From assembly GCA_021770825.1 (NCBI GenBank), contig JAETQD010000010.1:62227-126226 (forward strand): a DNA stretch of 64,000 nucleotides. Reading direction: 5' to 3'. Numbering within the stretch: position 1 is the stretch's first letter; each line of letters starts with the position of its first letter. The stretch comes from Clostridium sp. (lineage in GTDB: Bacteria > Bacillota > Clostridia > Lachnospirales > Lachnospiraceae). Positions 58,142 through 64,000 of the stretch are shown in pieces. Position numbers and translations under genes: made by a program. Under the pieces are notes generated by a model. The model saw only the letters and a list, made by a program, of their open reading frames with translations, was not told the DNA's origin and made no database searches.

Positions 58142-58820
58142 CTACAGCTTCGATATCTGTATAAAATGGAGATATCGCTCCAAATCCTCCTTATAGATAT
58201 ATTTCCGGCTGGCAATTCCTTCCATCCACGCAGAAAACGAATCCATATACTCTCTCATATCCAGCATTTCCGCTTCATCCACGTTGATGATGTCAAACGT
58301 ATCGCTGCTTAAGTTGGCCCGCAGCACTTTGTGATATACCTGATTCGACACCTCCGCGTGCGGCGTTACTGTGATCAAAAAAGCGAGAATCTCATCTTCC
58401 CAACAGATTCTCGTTGCAGCAATCTCCACGGCCTTTCCGAAGGGATCATCATAACTGAACGAACGGGCCTTATCCCCGTTGCCAATATAGAGCAATGGAC
58501 AGTTCCCGCATGTTCCTTTCCATAGCTCATGACAGACCATACCTATTTGTATGTTCGGTGCCACATCTTTTACCCGCTTGTTATAATATAAAATCAAGTT
58601 TTAAAAGTTTGTTATATGTTAAATACAGGATCTTTTTATCTTGAGGTATCAACTCACACAAATACTGAATTGCTGTAGTTTTTCCGCTTCCTATACATGC
58701 CTCCACAAGAATATTCCCACCTTTTAGAGCAAATTCAATGAACTCTCTTTGCTCTTCAGACAAGCTGAATTCACTATTTCTTATCTTCATGTGTTCATAC
58801 CCCCCCTCTTTCGCTATCAA
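58142..58820 (-). pseudogene. Frameshifted and 3'-truncated UvrD/PcrA-like helicase remnant (N-terminal ~225 aa only)
   Basis: The 58820-58581 fragment carries Walker A (NILVEACIGSGKTTAI). A +1 frame at about 58590 continues with IGMVCHELW (motif Ib-like TFHSFC) and FDIINVDEAEML (motif II-like). A stop follows about 40 aa later and motifs III-VI are absent. Confidence 0.5.
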
Positions 58821-59152: not shown

Positions 59153-59254
59153 TCAACATGTGTGGTTACCGCAGTTGAAACACATATCCTCTGCCTCGTG
59201 TCCTGAAAAAGAACACATATCGTTATCATTCAACAAGTCGTGATTATCGCTCAT
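59153..59254 (-). CDS. Small Cys-rich ORF (33 aa) immediately downstream of the recombinase, not in the ORF track
   Basis: Perfect AGGAGG 9 nt upstream. Translates to MSDNHDLLNDNDMCSFSGHEAEDMCFNCGNHTC (C-x10-C-x2-C-x4-C). Begins 24 nt after the recombinase stop. Confidence 0.3.
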   Translation of the reverse strand: MSDNHDLLNDNDMCSFSGHEAEDMCFNCGNHTC

Positions 59255-59277
59255 TTTAAAGCTCCTCCTTGTTGTTT

Positions 59278-60969
59278 TTATACTGCCTGCTTATGAAGAT
59301 TTTTGTACCTGTCCTTTGCATGCGGCACACTACAGTCATCCATACCCTTTAATACAAAAGTAAGCTTGTATGGGTCAGTACTGCCATCCTCTGCAATCTC
59401 TCCGACAATCACCTTCTCCACAATGCTTTCAAATACCAGTCTGTCAAATTCATCCGTCACATCGGCATTCTTAAGCTTTGCTCTAATGATTTTCATACGG
59501 CTTGCAATATTCTTTTGGGACATAGCATTCTCGGAAAACAACAGCTTTTCTTCCTCACACTTGTCCAGTTTGTGATTCAATTCACTGTATTTTTCTTCAT
59601 AAGCCTCTTTAGAAATTTTATCATCCAGATACATGTCGGTCAATTTCTTTCTCTTTTTTTCAAGAGTCGAAATTTCCTTCTCCACCCGCTTTAGCTTCTC
59701 AGTGCTGTCATCCTTTGAAATAGCAGCTTCCAATGATGAAAGCACCGATTCCAGCACATCATCAAAATTCTCAGCCAGTAGCCGAAACATCTCCAGAAAT
59801 GCATTCTCTATGATAACCTCATCAATTGCCTTGCTGTGCGGACAGTTTTCAATTCCTTTATTGGCTGCTGTCCTGCATTTCCATACAGGCTTTTTATGCT
59901 GTGTATCCTGATGATGGGAACGCCTTGTAAGATTCGTTCCACAGAAACCACACTGACACATACTGCTGAATGCGTACTTCCTTGCAAACTTGGTTCTTGC
60001 CCCATCGGACACATTCTCATTGGTACGATATCTACTCTCGCGAATCTCCTGTGCCTTGTTCCATATTTCCTCCGAAATAATGGGCTCATGATGGTTCCTT
60101 GTATAATATTTATTGGATTCCCCACGATTATCAAGCCGCCTCTTGGAAATCGGATCAACGGTATAAGTCTTACCCATAAGCAGGGCGCCCTTATACTTCT
60201 CATTCTTTAGAATGCCCCGGATACCGCTATCCGTCCACTTAACCTCGCCCTTCTTATTCACTTTGCCCCGCCTCGTAAGTTCCTTGGCAATGGTATAAGC
60301 ACCATATCCCTGCACATACAAATCAAAAATCATATGGACTGTCTCAGCCTCTTTTTCATTGATGGTAATGCTTTTGTCTTCCGGGTGATAATCATATCCG
60401 AGACAACCATTGAACCCCATCAGCTCCCCTCTGGACATCTTCATCTGAACGCCCAGGGAAACATTCTGTGACAGAGATTCCACCTCATTCTGCGCCAGTG
60501 CTGATAGAAGTGATAACTGCATTTCACTCTCCATGGTGGAAGTGTCAATATTTTCTTTCTCAAATATGACTGTCACTCCCTTTGCCTTCAACATTCTTGT
60601 ATAAGAAAGCACATCCACAAGATTTCTCGAAAATCTGGATACCGACTTGGTAATGACAATATCCACCAGACCGTTCATACAGTCATCAATCATGCGCAAA
60701 AACTCATCTCTCTTGGTGGTCTTAGTTCCCGTTATGCCCTCGTCCGCATAAATGCCTACAAGCGCCCACTCCTTATTTGCAGAAATTTTGTCCTGATAAT
60801 ACTCCTTCTGAGACTTAAAACTCTGCAACTGCTCCTCTGCATTTGTACTGACACGCACATATGCCGCCACTCGTTTTCTTGTGATGGTAAGTGGCTTCCC
60901 CACCAGTCTTCGGTCCCTGATAACAGGACCTTCAACTTTCTTAATTACTTCTACTTGTCTTTCTTCCAT
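59278..60969 (-). CDS. Large serine recombinase (resolvase/invertase catalytic domain, recombinase domain, zinc ribbon, coiled-coil)
   Basis: N-terminal catalytic domain AAYVRVSTNAEEQLQSFKSQKEYY (Ser nucleophile). Recombinase domain. Zn ribbon C…CGFCG…C. Long C-terminal coiled coil. 563 aa. Confidence 0.9.
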   Translation of the reverse strand: MEERQVEVIKKVEGPVIRDRRLVGKPLTITRKRVAAYVRVSTNAEEQLQSFKSQKEYYQDKISANKEWALVGIYADEGITGTKTTKRDEFLRMIDDCMNGLVDIVITKSVSRFSRNLVDVLSYTRMLKAKGVTVIFEKENIDTSTMESEMQLSLLSALAQNEVESLSQNVSLGVQMKMSRGELMGFNGCLGYDYHPEDKSITINEKEAETVHMIFDLYVQGYGAYTIAKELTRRGKVNKKGEVKWTDSGIRGILKNEKYKGALLMGKTYTVDPISKRRLDNRGESNKYYTRNHHEPIISEEIWNKAQEIRESRYRTNENVSDGARTKFARKYAFSSMCQCGFCGTNLTRRSHHQDTQHKKPVWKCRTAANKGIENCPHSKAIDEVIIENAFLEMFRLLAENFDDVLESVLSSLEAAISKDDSTEKLKRVEKEISTLEKKRKKLTDMYLDDKISKEAYEEKYSELNHKLDKCEEEKLLFSENAMSQKNIASRMKIIRAKLKNADVTDEFDRLVFESIVEKVIVGEIAEDGSTDPYKLTFVLKGMDDCSVPHAKDRYKNLHKQAV

Positions 60970-61078
60970 GCAAAAACTCCTTTCAAAAATCTGTCTGTAT
61001 ACGTTAAGTAGGCAGCAACAAAATATCTGCTACTGCCTACACTATAAATCATAATGAAAATGTTAACGAATGTGCGGA

Positions 61079-61222
61079 TTATGCAGTCATAAAACTGATA
61101 ACATCATATTCGCCCATAATATGAATTCTTGTTCTGTTGTACTCATCTTCCGTAATCAGTCCCTTACGAAAAATCCATCCCAACACCGCAAGCTTCTTAC
61201 TCAACTCCAGCTCCTTCGTCAT
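61079..61222 (-). CDS. Small ORF (47 aa) upstream of the recombinase on the same strand. Hypothetical, possibly a recombination directionality factor or XkdX-like.
   Basis: Translates to MTKELELSKKLAVLGWIFRKGLITEDEYNRTRIHIMGEYDVISFMTA. AGAGGGG about 6 nt before ATG. Not in the ORF track. Confidence 0.3.
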   Translation of the reverse strand: MTKELELSKKLAVLGWIFRKGLITEDEYNRTRIHIMGEYDVISFMTA

Positions 61223-61417
61223 AAGCTAACACCCCTCTTTCCTAATAATCTGACTTATCACCTTCTTTCTGCATAAATGCTGTGATAATACACGAATTGC
61301 TGATAAGATAAAGTTCTTTTGGCTTCCATTCGTATCCTATGCCGTCAGCGTTACAGCTGACCTTTAGCTCATTGCCTGCGGGCTACTCCTGCTCGAGTTC
61401 CTTTCCCACCTTTATTC

Positions 61418-61437
61418 AAGAATGCCTCGGCATTCTT
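61418..61437. repeat. Perfect 20-bp palindrome AAGAATGCC-TC-GGCATTCTT (9-bp arms around a non-palindromic TC dinucleotide)
   Basis: Read directly from the sequence. No T-run follows on either strand, so it is not a classic terminator. Confidence 0.6.
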
Positions 61438-61439
61438 GT

Positions 61440-61524
61440 GGCAAAACGCACACCGTGTGTAACACGGTAATTTCCTTGTGCGTTTCTGCCATCCGCCGGA
61501 GGCTTCTTTATGTGAATAAAGAAG
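61440..61524. repeat. Nested inverted repeats. 13-bp arms GGCAAAACGCACA/TGTGCGTTTCTGCC enclose a CCGTG-tgtaa-CACGG hairpin. A perfect 9-bp stem CTTCTTTAT-gtga-ATAAAGAAG (GNRA-like loop) follows.
   Basis: Read directly from the sequence. Together with the palindrome they fill the divergent intergenic region between the recombinase operon and the STAND gene. Confidence 0.5.
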
Positions 61525-61645
61525 TGTCTTCCCTCGCTCCTCCTAACTTCTCAGTTCTCCTCGCAAGGTCTGTTGGCATAAGATACAGCTCATGAATCCG
61601 TTTCCGGATTGTTTATCAAGGTTCAAAATACAAAAAGATTTAGTA

Positions 61646-61672
61646 GAACATTTGTTCTTTTTGTGTTATAAT
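61646..61672 (+). promoter_or_regulatory. Extended -10 promoter (TGtTATAAT) with an overlapping LexA/Cheo box GAACATTTGTTC, upstream of the STAND gene
   Basis: tagtaGAACATTTGTTCtttttgTGtTATAATc. GAAC-N4-GTTC is the Firmicutes LexA operator core. The -10 is consensus with a TG extension, about 110 nt upstream of the ORF. Confidence 0.5.
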
Positions 61673-61781
61673 CTTCTTGTAGCCAAGCCATTTCTCTCAT
61701 GGCTTCTGGTGGCTACGTTTTCATGGGTTAATGATACGAAATTTTGTCTTGGATTATCATTGACGGAAAGTTGACCGGAAG

Positions 61782-63845
61782 TTGACGAAAAAGTTAGGAA
61801 GTGATGAATTGCAGAACCGCATTACCTTCTCCAACGTAATCGGAGTGTTATTGGAAAATAAAAAGAAAACTTATGCACAGTACCAGATGATTGAAGACAT
61901 CTTCTACGACTGCCTGGGCAACATGGATTTATTTGAAAAAGAGGATTTTGAAAAAAATGTTACCTACAGCAGATGGTGTACCGGAGAGCGCCCGATACCC
62001 AAGGAAATATTATCCTTTTATGACAATTGCGGATTTGACGGCATTCAGGATAATATTCAGGATGATGTAATTCCAAACCTTATCAATGTGCCAGCCACAA
62101 GGAAACTGCTTTTAGAATTGGTTATGGACAGTGTGGATGTAATTGGTACAAAAAAGGCGGATGAATTTGCCCAGATAACCGATGATGCAGAGCTTATCAC
62201 TGCCCTTATCCGCTACGCCATATTAAATGACCATGACAGCAGACACACCCTGTTATCACCTAATTTATCGGATATTCTTCTGAGTAACAAGCTTCCTTCT
62301 GTAAACCGCTATTTTCTCGGAAGAAAAGAGGAAATAAAGGTCGTTAGCAAAGCTTTGCAGGAAAACAATCTTGTATTTATCACCGGCACTGCCGGTATGG
62401 GTAAAAGTGAACTGGCAAAGGTCTATGCCAAAAAGAATGAAAAGAAATACACCAACATCATTCACTTATTTTACGATGGTGATTTAAAGAAATGTGTTGC
62501 TCAGATGGAATTTAGTGATGATACCGCGGACATGAGCGAAGATATGCTCCTAGACAGACATATGAAACTATTAAAAAAGCTCCACTCTGACAGTCTCATT
62601 ATCATTGACAACTTCAATGTTCTGCCAAAAGAGGATGCTTTCTTTAAGGAATTTATAAAAATGAACTGTAAGATACTGGTTACCAGCCGGTGCAATATCT
62701 CTCAGTTTAAGACGGTAAAAGTTTCTGAAATGGACGCAGATACAGAGCTTGTAGAACTGTTTTATAAGCATTGCCCTTCTGCAAAGAGTTCTGAAGATGT
62801 GGTAAAGGACATTATCCAGACGGTGGGCTGTCACACCCTTACTGTATGCCTGTCTGCATTATCCCTGACAGCCAGCGGCATGGAACCGGAAGAACTGCTT
62901 GCTGAACTGAGAACTTGTGGGCTGAATATCGCCTCCGGGGAAGATGTGGAACTGTATAAAGATGATGATTTTACTGACGGACTGATGATCGAGCATTTAC
63001 GCAAACTGTTACAACTTGGCAAATTGTCCAATCAGCAATTGGACATTCTTTGCAATCTGTCTCTGCTACCAGTTGCCGGCATATTAAAGAACAGCTTCAA
63101 GAACTGGATGAGACTTGATAACCTTGCGGATGTAAACCACCTTATTAAATACGGATTTATCAACGAAGATACAGATAACAAGAAAATCAGCCTGCATCCA
63201 CTGTTACAGGAAGTGATTTCCATTGAAACCATACCAACCATAACTGCCTGCCGGACTCTGCTTAATAGCCTCCACCTTGTCTGCCTGGCACATGGCTTGG
63301 AACTTCGCAGGCCGGAAAATATCATTGCTTCCCTTATCAGTGTATCAGAGCGCATTATAGTAGATGATGGTGCATATTTCTTACTGTTTTTACAGGATAT
63401 GTTCCCATATCTGGACAAATACCTTGTATCGGATTACCTGCCGAAACTAACTGATAGAATCAGCTATCTTATGGAAGAATACAAGCTGGAATCTCCATGT
63501 GACAGGGCATTGCTACTGGATTATAAGGCAGAGTGTTTTCTGTTGAAAAAGGATTACGCAAATGCAGTTAAGGAACGTGAAAAGGCAATCAACATCATGG
63601 AAAAGATGCATACAAAAGATGCAGATATGCGAACTGCAAACCTGCTATCCAATCTGTACAACAACCTTTCCAACACTTATCTGCTGATGAAGCGTGGAAA
63701 TGAGGCAGCCAATGCACTCCGTACAGCCTTTGATATCCGTATGGAATATACACACTTGGGACTTACCGAATCCCATGATTCCCTGCAACAGATGATGAAC
63801 CTTATCAATATACTGTTGCTGGCAAAGTATACGGTAAATAGCTAG
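61782..63845 (+). CDS. STAND-class NTPase with an N-terminal ~190-aa (possibly HTH-like) domain, an NB-ARC-like P-loop ATPase and C-terminal TPR-like helical repeats
   Basis: Walker A FITGTAGMGKSELAK. Walker B SLIIIDNFN. ILVTSRC (hhhTSR/TTR-like). GCHTLTV at the GxP position. C-terminal ~300 aa are helical repeats. WCTGERPIPKEIL resembles the XRE-HTH W-x-x-G-x-R-x-P pattern. The start is uncertain: TTG at 61782, or more likely TTG at about 61809 with AGGAAG 7 nt upstream. Confidence 0.8.
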   Translation: MTKKLGSDELQNRITFSNVIGVLLENKKKTYAQYQMIEDIFYDCLGNMDLFEKEDFEKNVTYSRWCTGERPIPKEILSFYDNCGFDGIQDNIQDDVIPNLINVPATRKLLLELVMDSVDVIGTKKADEFAQITDDAELITALIRYAILNDHDSRHTLLSPNLSDILLSNKLPSVNRYFLGRKEEIKVVSKALQENNLVFITGTAGMGKSELAKVYAKKNEKKYTNIIHLFYDGDLKKCVAQMEFSDDTADMSEDMLLDRHMKLLKKLHSDSLIIIDNFNVLPKEDAFFKEFIKMNCKILVTSRCNISQFKTVKVSEMDADTELVELFYKHCPSAKSSEDVVKDIIQTVGCHTLTVCLSALSLTASGMEPEELLAELRTCGLNIASGEDVELYKDDDFTDGLMIEHLRKLLQLGKLSNQQLDILCNLSLLPVAGILKNSFKNWMRLDNLADVNHLIKYGFINEDTDNKKISLHPLLQEVISIETIPTITACRTLLNSLHLVCLAHGLELRRPENIIASLISVSERIIVDDGAYFLLFLQDMFPYLDKYLVSDYLPKLTDRISYLMEEYKLESPCDRALLLDYKAECFLLKKDYANAVKEREKAINIMEKMHTKDADMRTANLLSNLYNNLSNTYLLMKRGNEAANALRTAFDIRMEYTHLGLTESHDSLQQMMNLINILLLAKYTVNS

Positions 63846-63920
63846 TACCGTGCCAGTTTCGCTAAAATCTGAGATAATCAACTTTGAAAAAACTAAGTTT
63901 TTATAGAGGAGGACTATCTC

Positions 63921-64000
63921 ATGGATAAATCAACCCATCAGATCCGGCGTGAACAATGGACTCAGATCATCAATAACTGCCTTGCCAGCGGCCAGTCTAA
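63921..64000 (+). CDS. 5' end of an ORF running off the window. Possibly an HTH-containing transposase or regulator N-terminus.
   Basis: AGAGGAGG ribosome-binding site, then ATG. Translates to MDKSTHQIRREQWTQIINNCLASGQS… Only 26 codons are visible. Confidence 0.25.
   Translation, partial: MDKSTHQIRREQWTQIINNCLASGQS

What the first reader, a model, noticed from the sequence alone, without database searches (positions are those of the whole stretch)
61646..61672. LexA (Cheo-type) box overlapping the extended -10 promoter of the STAND gene
GAACATTTGTTC is a perfect GAAC-N4-GTTC palindrome, the Firmicutes LexA operator core. It sits 9 nt upstream of a TGtTATAAT extended -10. This predicts SOS-inducible expression of the STAND protein, a hallmark of prophage and mobile-element genes. 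The combination of an SOS box and a STAND NTPase is not commonly described.
Basis: partly seen in the sequence, partly recalled or inferred. Interest (0 to 1): 0.55.

Follow-up and report, generated by a model that had tools for sequence, protein, structure and literature searches.

The report
Conserved LexA box at STAND promoter
A DNA-damage (LexA/SOS) repressor site sits on the promoter of a large ATPase-sensor gene next to the integrase of a gut-bacterial mobile element, and the same site recurs at related genes in dozens of species, so it is very probably real, though no experiment has tested it.

Summary
GAACATTTGTTC lies at 61646-61657 and TGtTATAAT at 61664-61672. One such palindrome in 64 kb is what chance gives (0.83 expected), so the site proves nothing alone. 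The evidence comes from relatives.

- **Recurrence:** In 76 loci encoding relatives of the downstream STAND/TPR protein (28-96% identity, mostly Lachnospiraceae), 36 carry an exact GAAC-N4-GTT[CT]. Another 13 carry a one-mismatch version. All abut an extended -10.
- **Operator-like pattern:** The arms are kept while the central bases, the flanks and the distance to the -10 change.
- **Match to proven sites:** The site nearly equals C. difficile LexA operators verified in vitro (recA, lexA, ruvC).
- **Reading:** A host-LexA operator most likely makes the STAND gene SOS-inducible. This is inferred, not shown.
- **Context:** The gene lies beside a large serine recombinase, or a Tn916-type integrase in other loci, on integrative elements. 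The window copy is truncated at 63830.
- **Side finding:** A covariation-supported structured RNA absent from Rfam lies on the minus strand at 61326-61591, between the box and the recombinase operon.

This is a new LexA-regulon member of a known kind, with an unusual target gene.

The parts
61646..61657 (.). LexA (Cheo/DinR-type) operator candidate GAACATTTGTTC. The extended form AGAACATTTGTTCT spans 61645-61658.
   Evidence: Searches place it. Searches show it conserved at the same promoter in 36 loci exactly and 13 with one mismatch, out of 76. Its core is 11/12 identical to the C. difficile recA/lexA operator core.
61664..61672 (+). Extended -10 promoter element TGtTATAAT. A weak -35 TAGAAC at 61644-61649 lies inside the box.
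   Evidence: Read directly. TG-n-TATAAT/TATGAT is conserved in nearly all related loci. The simple promoter scan did not list it because its -35 is poor.
61678..61717 (+). Stem-loop at the predicted 5' end of the STAND mRNA (GTAGCC...GGCTAC), followed by GTTTTC.
   Evidence: predict it. The base of the stem is kept in 21 loci, with compensatory changes in 3 of 6 pairs and U.G pairs that fit the + strand. The -10-to-stem distance and the leader length (116-120 nt) are nearly constant.
61760..61786 (+). Three direct TTGAC repeats at 61760, 61771 and 61782 (11-nt period) in the 5' leader. Function unknown.
   Evidence: Nearly invariant across loci of 43-96% protein identity.
61809..63845 (+). STAND-type P-loop NTPase with C-terminal TPR and an unassigned helical N-terminal domain. 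Start TTG 61809 with RBS AGGAAGTG. The window copy is truncated: similarity to full-length 781-aa relatives stops at 63830.
   Evidence: Pfam matches are sub-threshold: AAA_18, AAA_22, nSTAND1/3/6, NB-ARC, TPR_12. Full-length homologs are 781-790 aa. The truncation point comes, and the same truncation appears in independent assemblies.
61326..61591 (-). Structured RNA candidate, a multi-helix junction closed by a 12-bp helix. It lies upstream of the small ORF and recombinase on the same strand. The window copy carries a ~100-nt insert.
   Evidence: Model R1 scores 119 bits here and hits 47 loci plus 3 viral loci, always on this strand. Pairs form in 95.4% of cells, 23 of 31 pairs show compensatory change, 0 of 500 shuffles match, and slid controls reach at most 49%. 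There is no Rfam match.
61079..61222 (-). 47-aa ORF preceding the recombinase. It might be a directionality or regulatory factor; this is not tested.
   Evidence: Called in related contigs. Conserved at 40-100% identity wherever the serine recombinase is present. No family match.
59278..60969 (-). Large serine recombinase, 563 aa.
   Evidence: Resolvase, Recombinase and Zn_ribbon_recom domains all exceed the Pfam cut-offs. NCBIfam similarity to CcrB/CcrC/XisF is below their cut-offs.
59159..59277 (.). Left end of the DNA shared with related elements. The junction lies at 59158/59159, about 120 nt past the recombinase stop.
   Evidence: window and L001 are 98% identical from 59159 rightwards and unrelated to the left.

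Best explanation
The palindrome is most likely an operator for the host's LexA repressor, laid over the core promoter of the STAND/TPR gene. That promoter has an extended -10 at 61664-61672 and a predicted start near 61679. In undamaged cells LexA would occupy the -35/spacer region and block RNA polymerase. After DNA damage, RecA-stimulated LexA self-cleavage would free the promoter, and the STAND mRNA would be made with its 130-nt conserved leader. The gene belongs to integrase-bearing integrative elements of Lachnospiraceae and related Clostridia. The arrangement therefore couples a signal-sensing ATPase of a mobile element to the SOS response.

Shown here: the sequence features, their conservation pattern, their near-identity to proven clostridial LexA operators, and the mobile-element context.

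Inferred: LexA binding, repression, DNA-damage induction, and what the STAND protein does once made. Because the box is palindromic and lies between divergent units, it could also gate the minus-strand RNA/recombinase operon. I found no convincing minus-strand promoter, so that extension stays open.
For: - **Enrichment:** 36 of the 51 GAAC-N4-GTTY matches in 701 kb of related loci lie immediately upstream of the STAND extended -10. About 35 matches are expected over the whole 701 kb.
- **Census of 76 loci:** 36 exact, 13 with one mismatch. Among the 28-32% identity clades, 20 of 29 loci have a box with at most one mismatch, although their promoters are otherwise unalignable.
- **Operator-like variation:** The N4 centre varies (ATTT, ATAG, ATAT, ATCT, ATCA, ATCC, ATAA, ATAC, ACAC, ATTC). 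The gap to TATAAT is 4 to 10 nt in the listed promoters. The arms, A5, T6 and the 3' G stay fixed.
- **Placement in a distant clade:** The box CGAAT-ATAT-GTTCG fills exactly the 17-nt spacer between TTGAAT and TATGAT.
- **Match to proven sites:** The window site read on the minus strand is AAGAACAAATGTTCTA, against C. difficile recA GAGAACAAATGTTTGT and lexA AGGAACAAATGTTTGC. L055/L048 TAGAACATAAGTTTGT match ruvC TAGAACATAAGTTTTT. All three C. difficile sites bind LexA in SPR (PMC4234289).
- **A Clostridia lexA promoter:** Acetoanaerobium noterae shows three such boxes, one followed by TGTTATAAT as here.
- **Host factor favoured:** The STAND N-terminal domains of the clades are only 18-25% identical yet the site is the same. 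That fits a conserved host factor better than an element-encoded one.
- **Promoter reality:** The -10, the -10-to-hairpin distance and the leader length are conserved.
- **Precedent:** LexA represses the promoters of the ccr large serine recombinase genes on SCCmec (PMC5397144).
Against: - No binding or expression data exist for this site.
- No lexA, recA or other SOS gene lies in the window or in any fetched locus. The site could therefore not be scored against the same organism's own SOS boxes, and no Lachnospiraceae lexA promoter was retrieved.
- 23 of 76 loci lack the box, including a coherent 56-59% identity clade with TTCGACAC at that position. LexA control is thus not obligatory for the family.
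- The loci are related by descent, so the counts are not independent events.
- The -35 is weak (TAGAAC), and the generic promoter scan did not call this promoter.
- The window's STAND copy is truncated, so in this genome the regulated product may be non-functional.
Confidence: 0.75

Rival explanations
1. The site is an operator for an element-encoded regulator rather than host LexA. The candidate is the STAND protein's own N-terminal domain (autoregulation) or the 47-aa protein.
Confidence: 0.1
2. The conserved bases are simply promoter elements (a -35 or UP-like sequence) of a strong extended -10 promoter, and no repressor is involved.
For: TAGAAC sits at the -35 distance in the window. The -10 is itself highly conserved.
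Against: The distance from the box to TATAAT varies from 4 to 10 nt between clades, and in distant clades a separate TTGAAT/TTGTCC -35 lies upstream of the box. Both arms of an inverted repeat are kept while the centre varies, which -35 recognition does not need.
Confidence: 0.05
3. The box mainly controls the minus-strand unit (structured RNA, small ORF, recombinase), so that SOS triggers excision. Its overlap with the STAND promoter would be secondary.
For: The box lies about 55 nt upstream, in minus-strand sense, of the RNA's closing helix. LexA control of serine recombinase genes is known for SCCmec. A T-A dinucleotide before GAAC is conserved and reads TATAAG-like on the minus strand.
Against: No acceptable sigma-70 promoter was found on the minus strand: the candidate -10 hexamers lack the final T, and the spacing to the RNA varies by tens of nt (my reading of the alignments). 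In the L084-type clade the box lies between same-strand genes directly before STAND, with no divergent recombinase promoter nearby. The RNA is absent from the 28-32% clades that still keep the box.
Confidence: 0.08
4. The match is a chance palindrome with no function.
For: One match per 64 kb is the chance expectation.
Against: The site recurs at the homologous promoter in 49 of 76 loci, including relatives of 28-32% identity.
Confidence: 0.02

Closest known systems
LexA (DinR) operators of Bacillota: the Cheo box GAAC-N4-GTTC of B. subtilis, and the GAAC-N4-GTT[CT] operators of C. difficile, C. perfringens and C. acetobutylicum
   Same: It has the same inverted repeat, the same A/T-rich centre with A at position 5 and T at position 8, and the same placement over a core promoter. 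It is near-identical to the C. difficile recA, lexA and ruvC operators (PMC4234289).
   Different: The gene it controls is not a DNA-repair gene but a STAND/TPR protein of a mobile element. The 5' flank is usually TA rather than C. Binding has not been tested.
LexA-repressed promoters of the ccrC1/ccrAB large serine recombinase genes on SCCmec (PMC5397144)
   Same: A Bacillota integrative element with large serine recombinase(s) is wired to host LexA through a box over the -35/-10, so DNA damage acts on the element.
   Different: There the box is on the recombinase promoter and is degenerate. Here it is a near-consensus box on the divergent STAND gene, and control of the recombinase is not shown.
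Host-LexA-controlled switch genes of temperate phages: coliphage 186 tum and Gifsy antirepressors (my own knowledge), GIL01 (PMC6182141, listed)
   Same: A mobile element relies on the host's LexA rather than a self-cleaving repressor, through one operator at one regulatory gene near the integration module.
   Different: Those products are small antirepressors or early lytic genes. Here the product is a 781-aa P-loop/TPR protein whose role in the element is unknown.
STAND NTPases: transcription switches (MalT, AfsR/SARP) and antiviral Avs proteins (my own knowledge)
   Same: The tripartite layout is the same: an N-terminal output domain, a P-loop NTPase (GTAGMGKSE) and C-terminal TPR repeats.
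   Different: No Pfam STAND model reaches its cut-off. There is no Avs match in PADLOC. The N-terminal domain matches no known effector or DNA-binding family.

Membership tests
LexA (Cheo/DinR-type) operator | Inverted repeat GAAC-N4-GTT[CT] | tested here: met
   GAACATTTGTTC lies at 61646-61657.
LexA (Cheo/DinR-type) operator | Overlaps or abuts the core promoter of the regulated gene | tested here: met
   The box ends 6 nt before the TG of TGtTATAAT and covers the -35 position. The same relation holds in 49 of 76 related loci. The promoter is predicted, not mapped.
LexA (Cheo/DinR-type) operator | Position preferences of known sites: A/T-rich centre, purine at position 5, pyrimidine at position 8, G after GTTY | tested here: met
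   In 39 distinct promoters A5 occurs in 37, T6 in 39, T8 in 31 and G13 in 33. These agree with the C. difficile operators and the lexA promoter.
LexA (Cheo/DinR-type) operator | Conserved at orthologous promoters beyond neutral drift | tested here: met
   Arms are fixed while the centre, flanks and spacing vary, across relatives of 28-96% protein identity.
LexA (Cheo/DinR-type) operator | The host encodes LexA with this specificity, and the site scores within the host's own SOS regulon | not tested
Only other Clostridia were checked.
LexA (Cheo/DinR-type) operator | Bound by LexA; gene derepressed by DNA damage | not testable with these tools
   This needs EMSA or SPR, and RT-qPCR or RNA-seq after mitomycin C.
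STAND NTPase | P-loop NTPase core matching a STAND/NB-ARC model | tested here: inconclusive
   The Walker A motif GTAGMGKSE is present. nSTAND1, nSTAND3, nSTAND6, NB-ARC and AAA_16 hits all fall below their Pfam cut-offs, with E-values of 1e-4 to 8e-3. NCBIfam FxSxx_TPR matches only partly: 46.9 bits against a cut-off of 300.
STAND NTPase | C-terminal repeat sensor domain (TPR) | tested here: inconclusive
   TPR_12 scores 20.2 bits against a cut-off of 30.1 in the truncated window copy. Full-length relatives carry precomputed PF13424 hits.
Avs (antiviral STAND) defence proteins | Match to a defence-system model | tested here: not met
   PADLOC gave only a weak mad8 hit (E = 2e-4, 18.9 bits) and no Avs model.
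Large serine recombinase | Resolvase, Recombinase and Zn-ribbon recombinase domains | tested here: met
   All three exceed the Pfam cut-offs at 104, 89 and 47 bits.
Any Rfam RNA family (for the minus-strand RNA and the STAND leader) | Covariance-model match | tested here: not met
   Nothing reached gathering score in the window except two tRNAs. Only chance-level hits appeared for 60800-61900. There were no hits at E up to 10 for the insert-free copy in L016.

The most novel reading that the evidence does not exclude
The LexA-gated STAND/TPR protein is the decision switch of a widespread family of small integrative elements in gut Lachnospiraceae. DNA damage lets it be made. Its TPR domain senses a second signal, and its helical N-terminal domain then acts on the element's own control region: the three TTGAC repeats and/or the previously undescribed structured RNA that precedes the excision/integration genes. 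That action would trigger excision. If so, the module of LexA box, STAND gene and RNA is a new kind of two-input induction circuit shared by elements that use unrelated recombinases (serine and tyrosine).
Probability: 0.2. Interest if true: 0.75.

Novelty: new member of a known kind. Interest (0 to 1): 0.55.

Why it matters
If LexA controls this promoter, DNA-damaging drugs and genotoxins in the gut would switch on a large sensor ATPase. That protein is carried by very common mobile elements of Lachnospiraceae: one variant alone was seen on 631 contigs. This would add a new and unusual class of gene to the SOS regulon of Clostridia.

The finding also gives an entry point to an uncharacterised STAND family that is consistently linked to integrases. 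The conserved module further contains a structured RNA that no database describes. Together these define a compact set of testable hypotheses about how these elements decide to move or to act.

Tried and rejected
- **Group II intron or known riboswitch in 61220-61640:** rejected. Rfam shows nothing, and the neighbouring 563-aa ORF is a serine recombinase, not a reverse transcriptase.
- **The two 563-aa ORFs of the window as repeats:** rejected. They are unrelated.
- **ATG/GTG at 61801-61806 as the STAND start:** rejected. They are out of frame. TTG 61809 fits the RBS and the 781-aa homologs.
- **A minus-strand sigma-70 promoter around the box for the RNA/recombinase unit:** none was convincing (alignments).
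- **Pairing between the RNA's CCGUCAA and the leader's UUGACGG:** dropped, because loci that lack the former keep the latter.
- **Defence-system assignment:** PADLOC gave no hit.
- **lexA/recA in held sequence, to build a same-host PWM:** none found. PLSDB yielded only non-Lachnospiraceae Clostridia.
- **Naming the host:** cluster look-up returned no names.
- **Identifying the DNA inserted after 63830:** no plasmid match.
- **Exact element ends:** comparisons give different right-hand limits (8368 against 8532 in L007 coordinates). I therefore do not claim a defined 5-kb transposon.

Full report
**1. The observation**

- GAACATTTGTTC occupies 61646-61657, and TGTTATAAT occupies 61664-61672.
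- It is the only GAAC-N4-GTTC in the window. One is also what chance predicts: mean 0.83, with 57 of 100 shuffles having at least one. Relaxing the pattern to GTTY adds one site inside a coding region.
- The motif is therefore real but uninformative on its own.
- Geometrically the box covers the -35 position and upstream spacer of the promoter. It lies 9 nt from the TATAAT hexamer and 6 nt from the TG.

**2. Surroundings**

- Upstream on the minus strand lie a 563-aa large serine recombinase (59278-60969) and a 47-aa ORF (61079-61222). The recombinase has Resolvase, Recombinase and Zn_ribbon_recom domains above their cut-offs.
- Downstream on the plus strand lies a P-loop/TPR protein with sub-threshold STAND hits.
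- The first in-frame start listed is TTG 61782. Homologs are called at 781 aa, and a good RBS (AGGAAGTG) precedes TTG 61809, which I take as the start.
- Full-length relatives are 781-790 aa. The window copy loses similarity at 63830 and stops at 63845, so it is truncated. Independent assemblies show the same truncation.
- Similarity to related elements begins at 59159.
- The block of recombinase, small ORF, intergenic region and STAND gene recurs with different flanks on both sides. It also assembles as contigs of about 5.1 kb. Its right-hand limit is not sharp.

**3. The comparative test**

A representative search showed a large family with full-length relatives down to about 25% identity. 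A genome scan returned 80 loci of 28-96% identity. Most are Lachnospiraceae: Agathobacter, Roseburia, Blautia, Dorea, Lachnospira, Coprococcus and Eubacterium ramulus.

- Of 76 loci with usable upstream DNA, 36 have an exact GAAC-N4-GTT[CT] next to an extended -10. Another 13 have one mismatch, 23 have two or more, and 4 have no recognisable extended -10.
- Thirty-six of all 51 matches in 701 kb are at this one position.
- The 39 distinct promoter sequences keep GAAC, A5, T6, GTTY and a following G.
- The centre varies, the flanks vary, and the distance to TATAAT takes values from 4 to 10 nt.
- In one 29-30% identity clade the sequence is cTTGAAtCGAATATATGTTCGtgtTATGAT. There the box fills the 17-nt spacer of a different promoter.

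This is the signature of a repressor operator laid over promoters, not of a -35 element.

**4. Identity of the binding protein**

- C. difficile LexA operators verified by SPR include lexA AGGAACAAATGTTTGC, recA GAGAACAAATGTTTGT, ruvC TAGAACATAAGTTTTT and uvrB AGGAACTAATGTTCGA (PMC4234289).
- The window site on the minus strand reads AAGAACAAATGTTCTA. L055/L048 read TAGAACATAAGTTTGT.
- The lexA promoter of Acetoanaerobium noterae (Clostridia), fetched here, carries three such boxes. One is followed by TGTTATAAT. Vescimonas has CGAACAGTTGTTGC.
- The STAND N-terminal domains of the different clades share only 18-25% identity. An element-encoded binder would be expected to have drifted together with its site. 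An unchanged site points to a conserved host factor.
- I could not retrieve SOS genes of the same host or of any Lachnospiraceae.

**5. Support for the promoter**

- The extended -10 is conserved.
- A stem-loop (61678-61717) begins at the predicted transcript start. It keeps its base pairs, with some compensatory changes and plus-strand U.G pairs.
- The leader length is nearly constant at 116-120 nt.
- The leader also holds three TTGAC repeats with an 11-nt period, almost invariant across loci of 43-96% identity. Their role is unknown.

**6. What the gene belongs to**

- In other loci the same STAND gene lies beside serine recombinases that are only 53-79% identical to the window's.
- In others it lies beside Tn916-type tyrosine integrases.
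- In the distant clades it lies beside other large serine recombinases, sometimes two in tandem.
- Seventeen IMG/VR contigs carry relatives, several at contig ends next to a phrog_95 serine integrase.

The family is therefore an integrase-proximal gene of integrative elements, some of which may be prophages. Its function is open:
- PADLOC finds no defence model.
- The N-terminal domain folds as a helical bundle (pLDDT 80.5).

**7. Mechanism proposed**

Host LexA occludes the STAND promoter, and DNA damage relieves it. Steps shown: the sequence, its conservation, its similarity to proven sites, and the context. Steps inferred: binding, repression, induction and downstream function.

Known parallels are the LexA-repressed ccr recombinase promoters of SCCmec (PMC5397144) and LexA-controlled switch genes of temperate phages (my own knowledge).

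**8. Exceptions**

- A 56-59% identity clade replaces the box with ttcGACACaagattta.
- L053 has a decayed box, GAGCATTTATTC.

LexA control is therefore common but not universal in the family.

**9. Side finding**

Between the box and the small ORF, on the minus strand, lies a structured RNA candidate.
- Model R1 (177 positions, 31 pairs) finds it once per locus in 47 genome loci and 3 viral loci. It is always on that strand, and the window copy is at 61326-61591.
- Pairs form in 95.4% of cells, 23 of 31 pairs show compensatory change, and 0 of 500 shuffles reach this. Slid controls reach at most 49%.
- Near-invariant U.G and G.U pairs and GNRA loops fix the strand.
- It accompanies the STAND gene whichever recombinase type is adjacent. 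It is absent from the 28-32% clades and has no Rfam match.

**10. Verdict**

- It is a new member of a known kind: a LexA operator on a mobile-element gene.
- The target gene is unusual, and the conserved module around it deserves experiments.

Noticed in passing
window 61326-61591 (minus strand); also L016:2149-2311(-) and 46 other loci: A structured RNA candidate that Rfam does not hold. It is a multi-helix junction closed by a 12-bp helix, with GNRA loops and variable insert sites, and lies upstream of the small ORF and recombinase/integrase. Covariation is strong: 23 of 31 pairs compensatory, 95.4% of cells paired, 0 of 500 shuffles. It accompanies the STAND gene next to serine and tyrosine recombinases alike. 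Its promoter, 5' end and function are unknown.
   Followed up: partly
window 61760-61786 (plus strand): Three direct TTGAC repeats with an 11-nt period lie in the STAND 5' leader, just before the RBS. They are almost invariant in loci of 43-96% protein identity. They look like a protein-binding array and match no regulator motif I could name.
   Followed up: no
window 61678-61717 (plus strand): A conserved stem-loop sits at the predicted 5' end of the STAND mRNA and is followed by GTTTTC. It could be a 5' stabiliser or a weak attenuator. Covariation is limited (3 of 6 pairs).
   Followed up: partly
window 63830-64000: The STAND gene is cut at 63830 relative to 781-aa homologs. Unrelated DNA follows, with a new ORF starting at 63922 (MDKSTHQIRREQWTQIINNCLASGQS...), possibly an insertion sequence. 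Independent assemblies end at the same point, as expected for a repeat.
   Followed up: partly
L026, L027, L029, L033-L036, L046, L059, L064, about 150 nt upstream of the STAND start: A 56-59% identity clade lacks the LexA box. At the same position before TGATATAAT it has aaaaTTCGACACaagattta. TTCGACA is the reverse complement of the Spo0A 0A-box consensus TGTCGAA (my own knowledge), which hints at a swap of regulatory input.
   Followed up: no
L097:765-800: A second copy of the box-plus-promoter cassette (cTTGAAtCGAATGTACGTTCGtgtaTATGAT) lies 7 kb from the STAND promoter in a viral contig. No obvious gene follows it.
   Followed up: no
window 58142-58820 (minus strand): Short ORFs with weak DEAD/UvrD helicase N-terminal similarity lie just left of the element junction at 59158/59159. 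They may be remnants of a gene disrupted by the integration.
   Followed up: no
window 61420-61520: The window's copy of the RNA region carries an extra stretch of about 100 nt made of strong hairpins. L001 has a 40-nt shorter version and most loci lack it.
   Followed up: partly
L007-L012, L001-L006 flanks: The DNA around the recombinase-STAND block is rich in defence-type genes: AbiEi/AbiEii, Abi_2, a TIR/SLFN protein, and restriction-modification genes. IS256-family transposases are also present.
   Followed up: no
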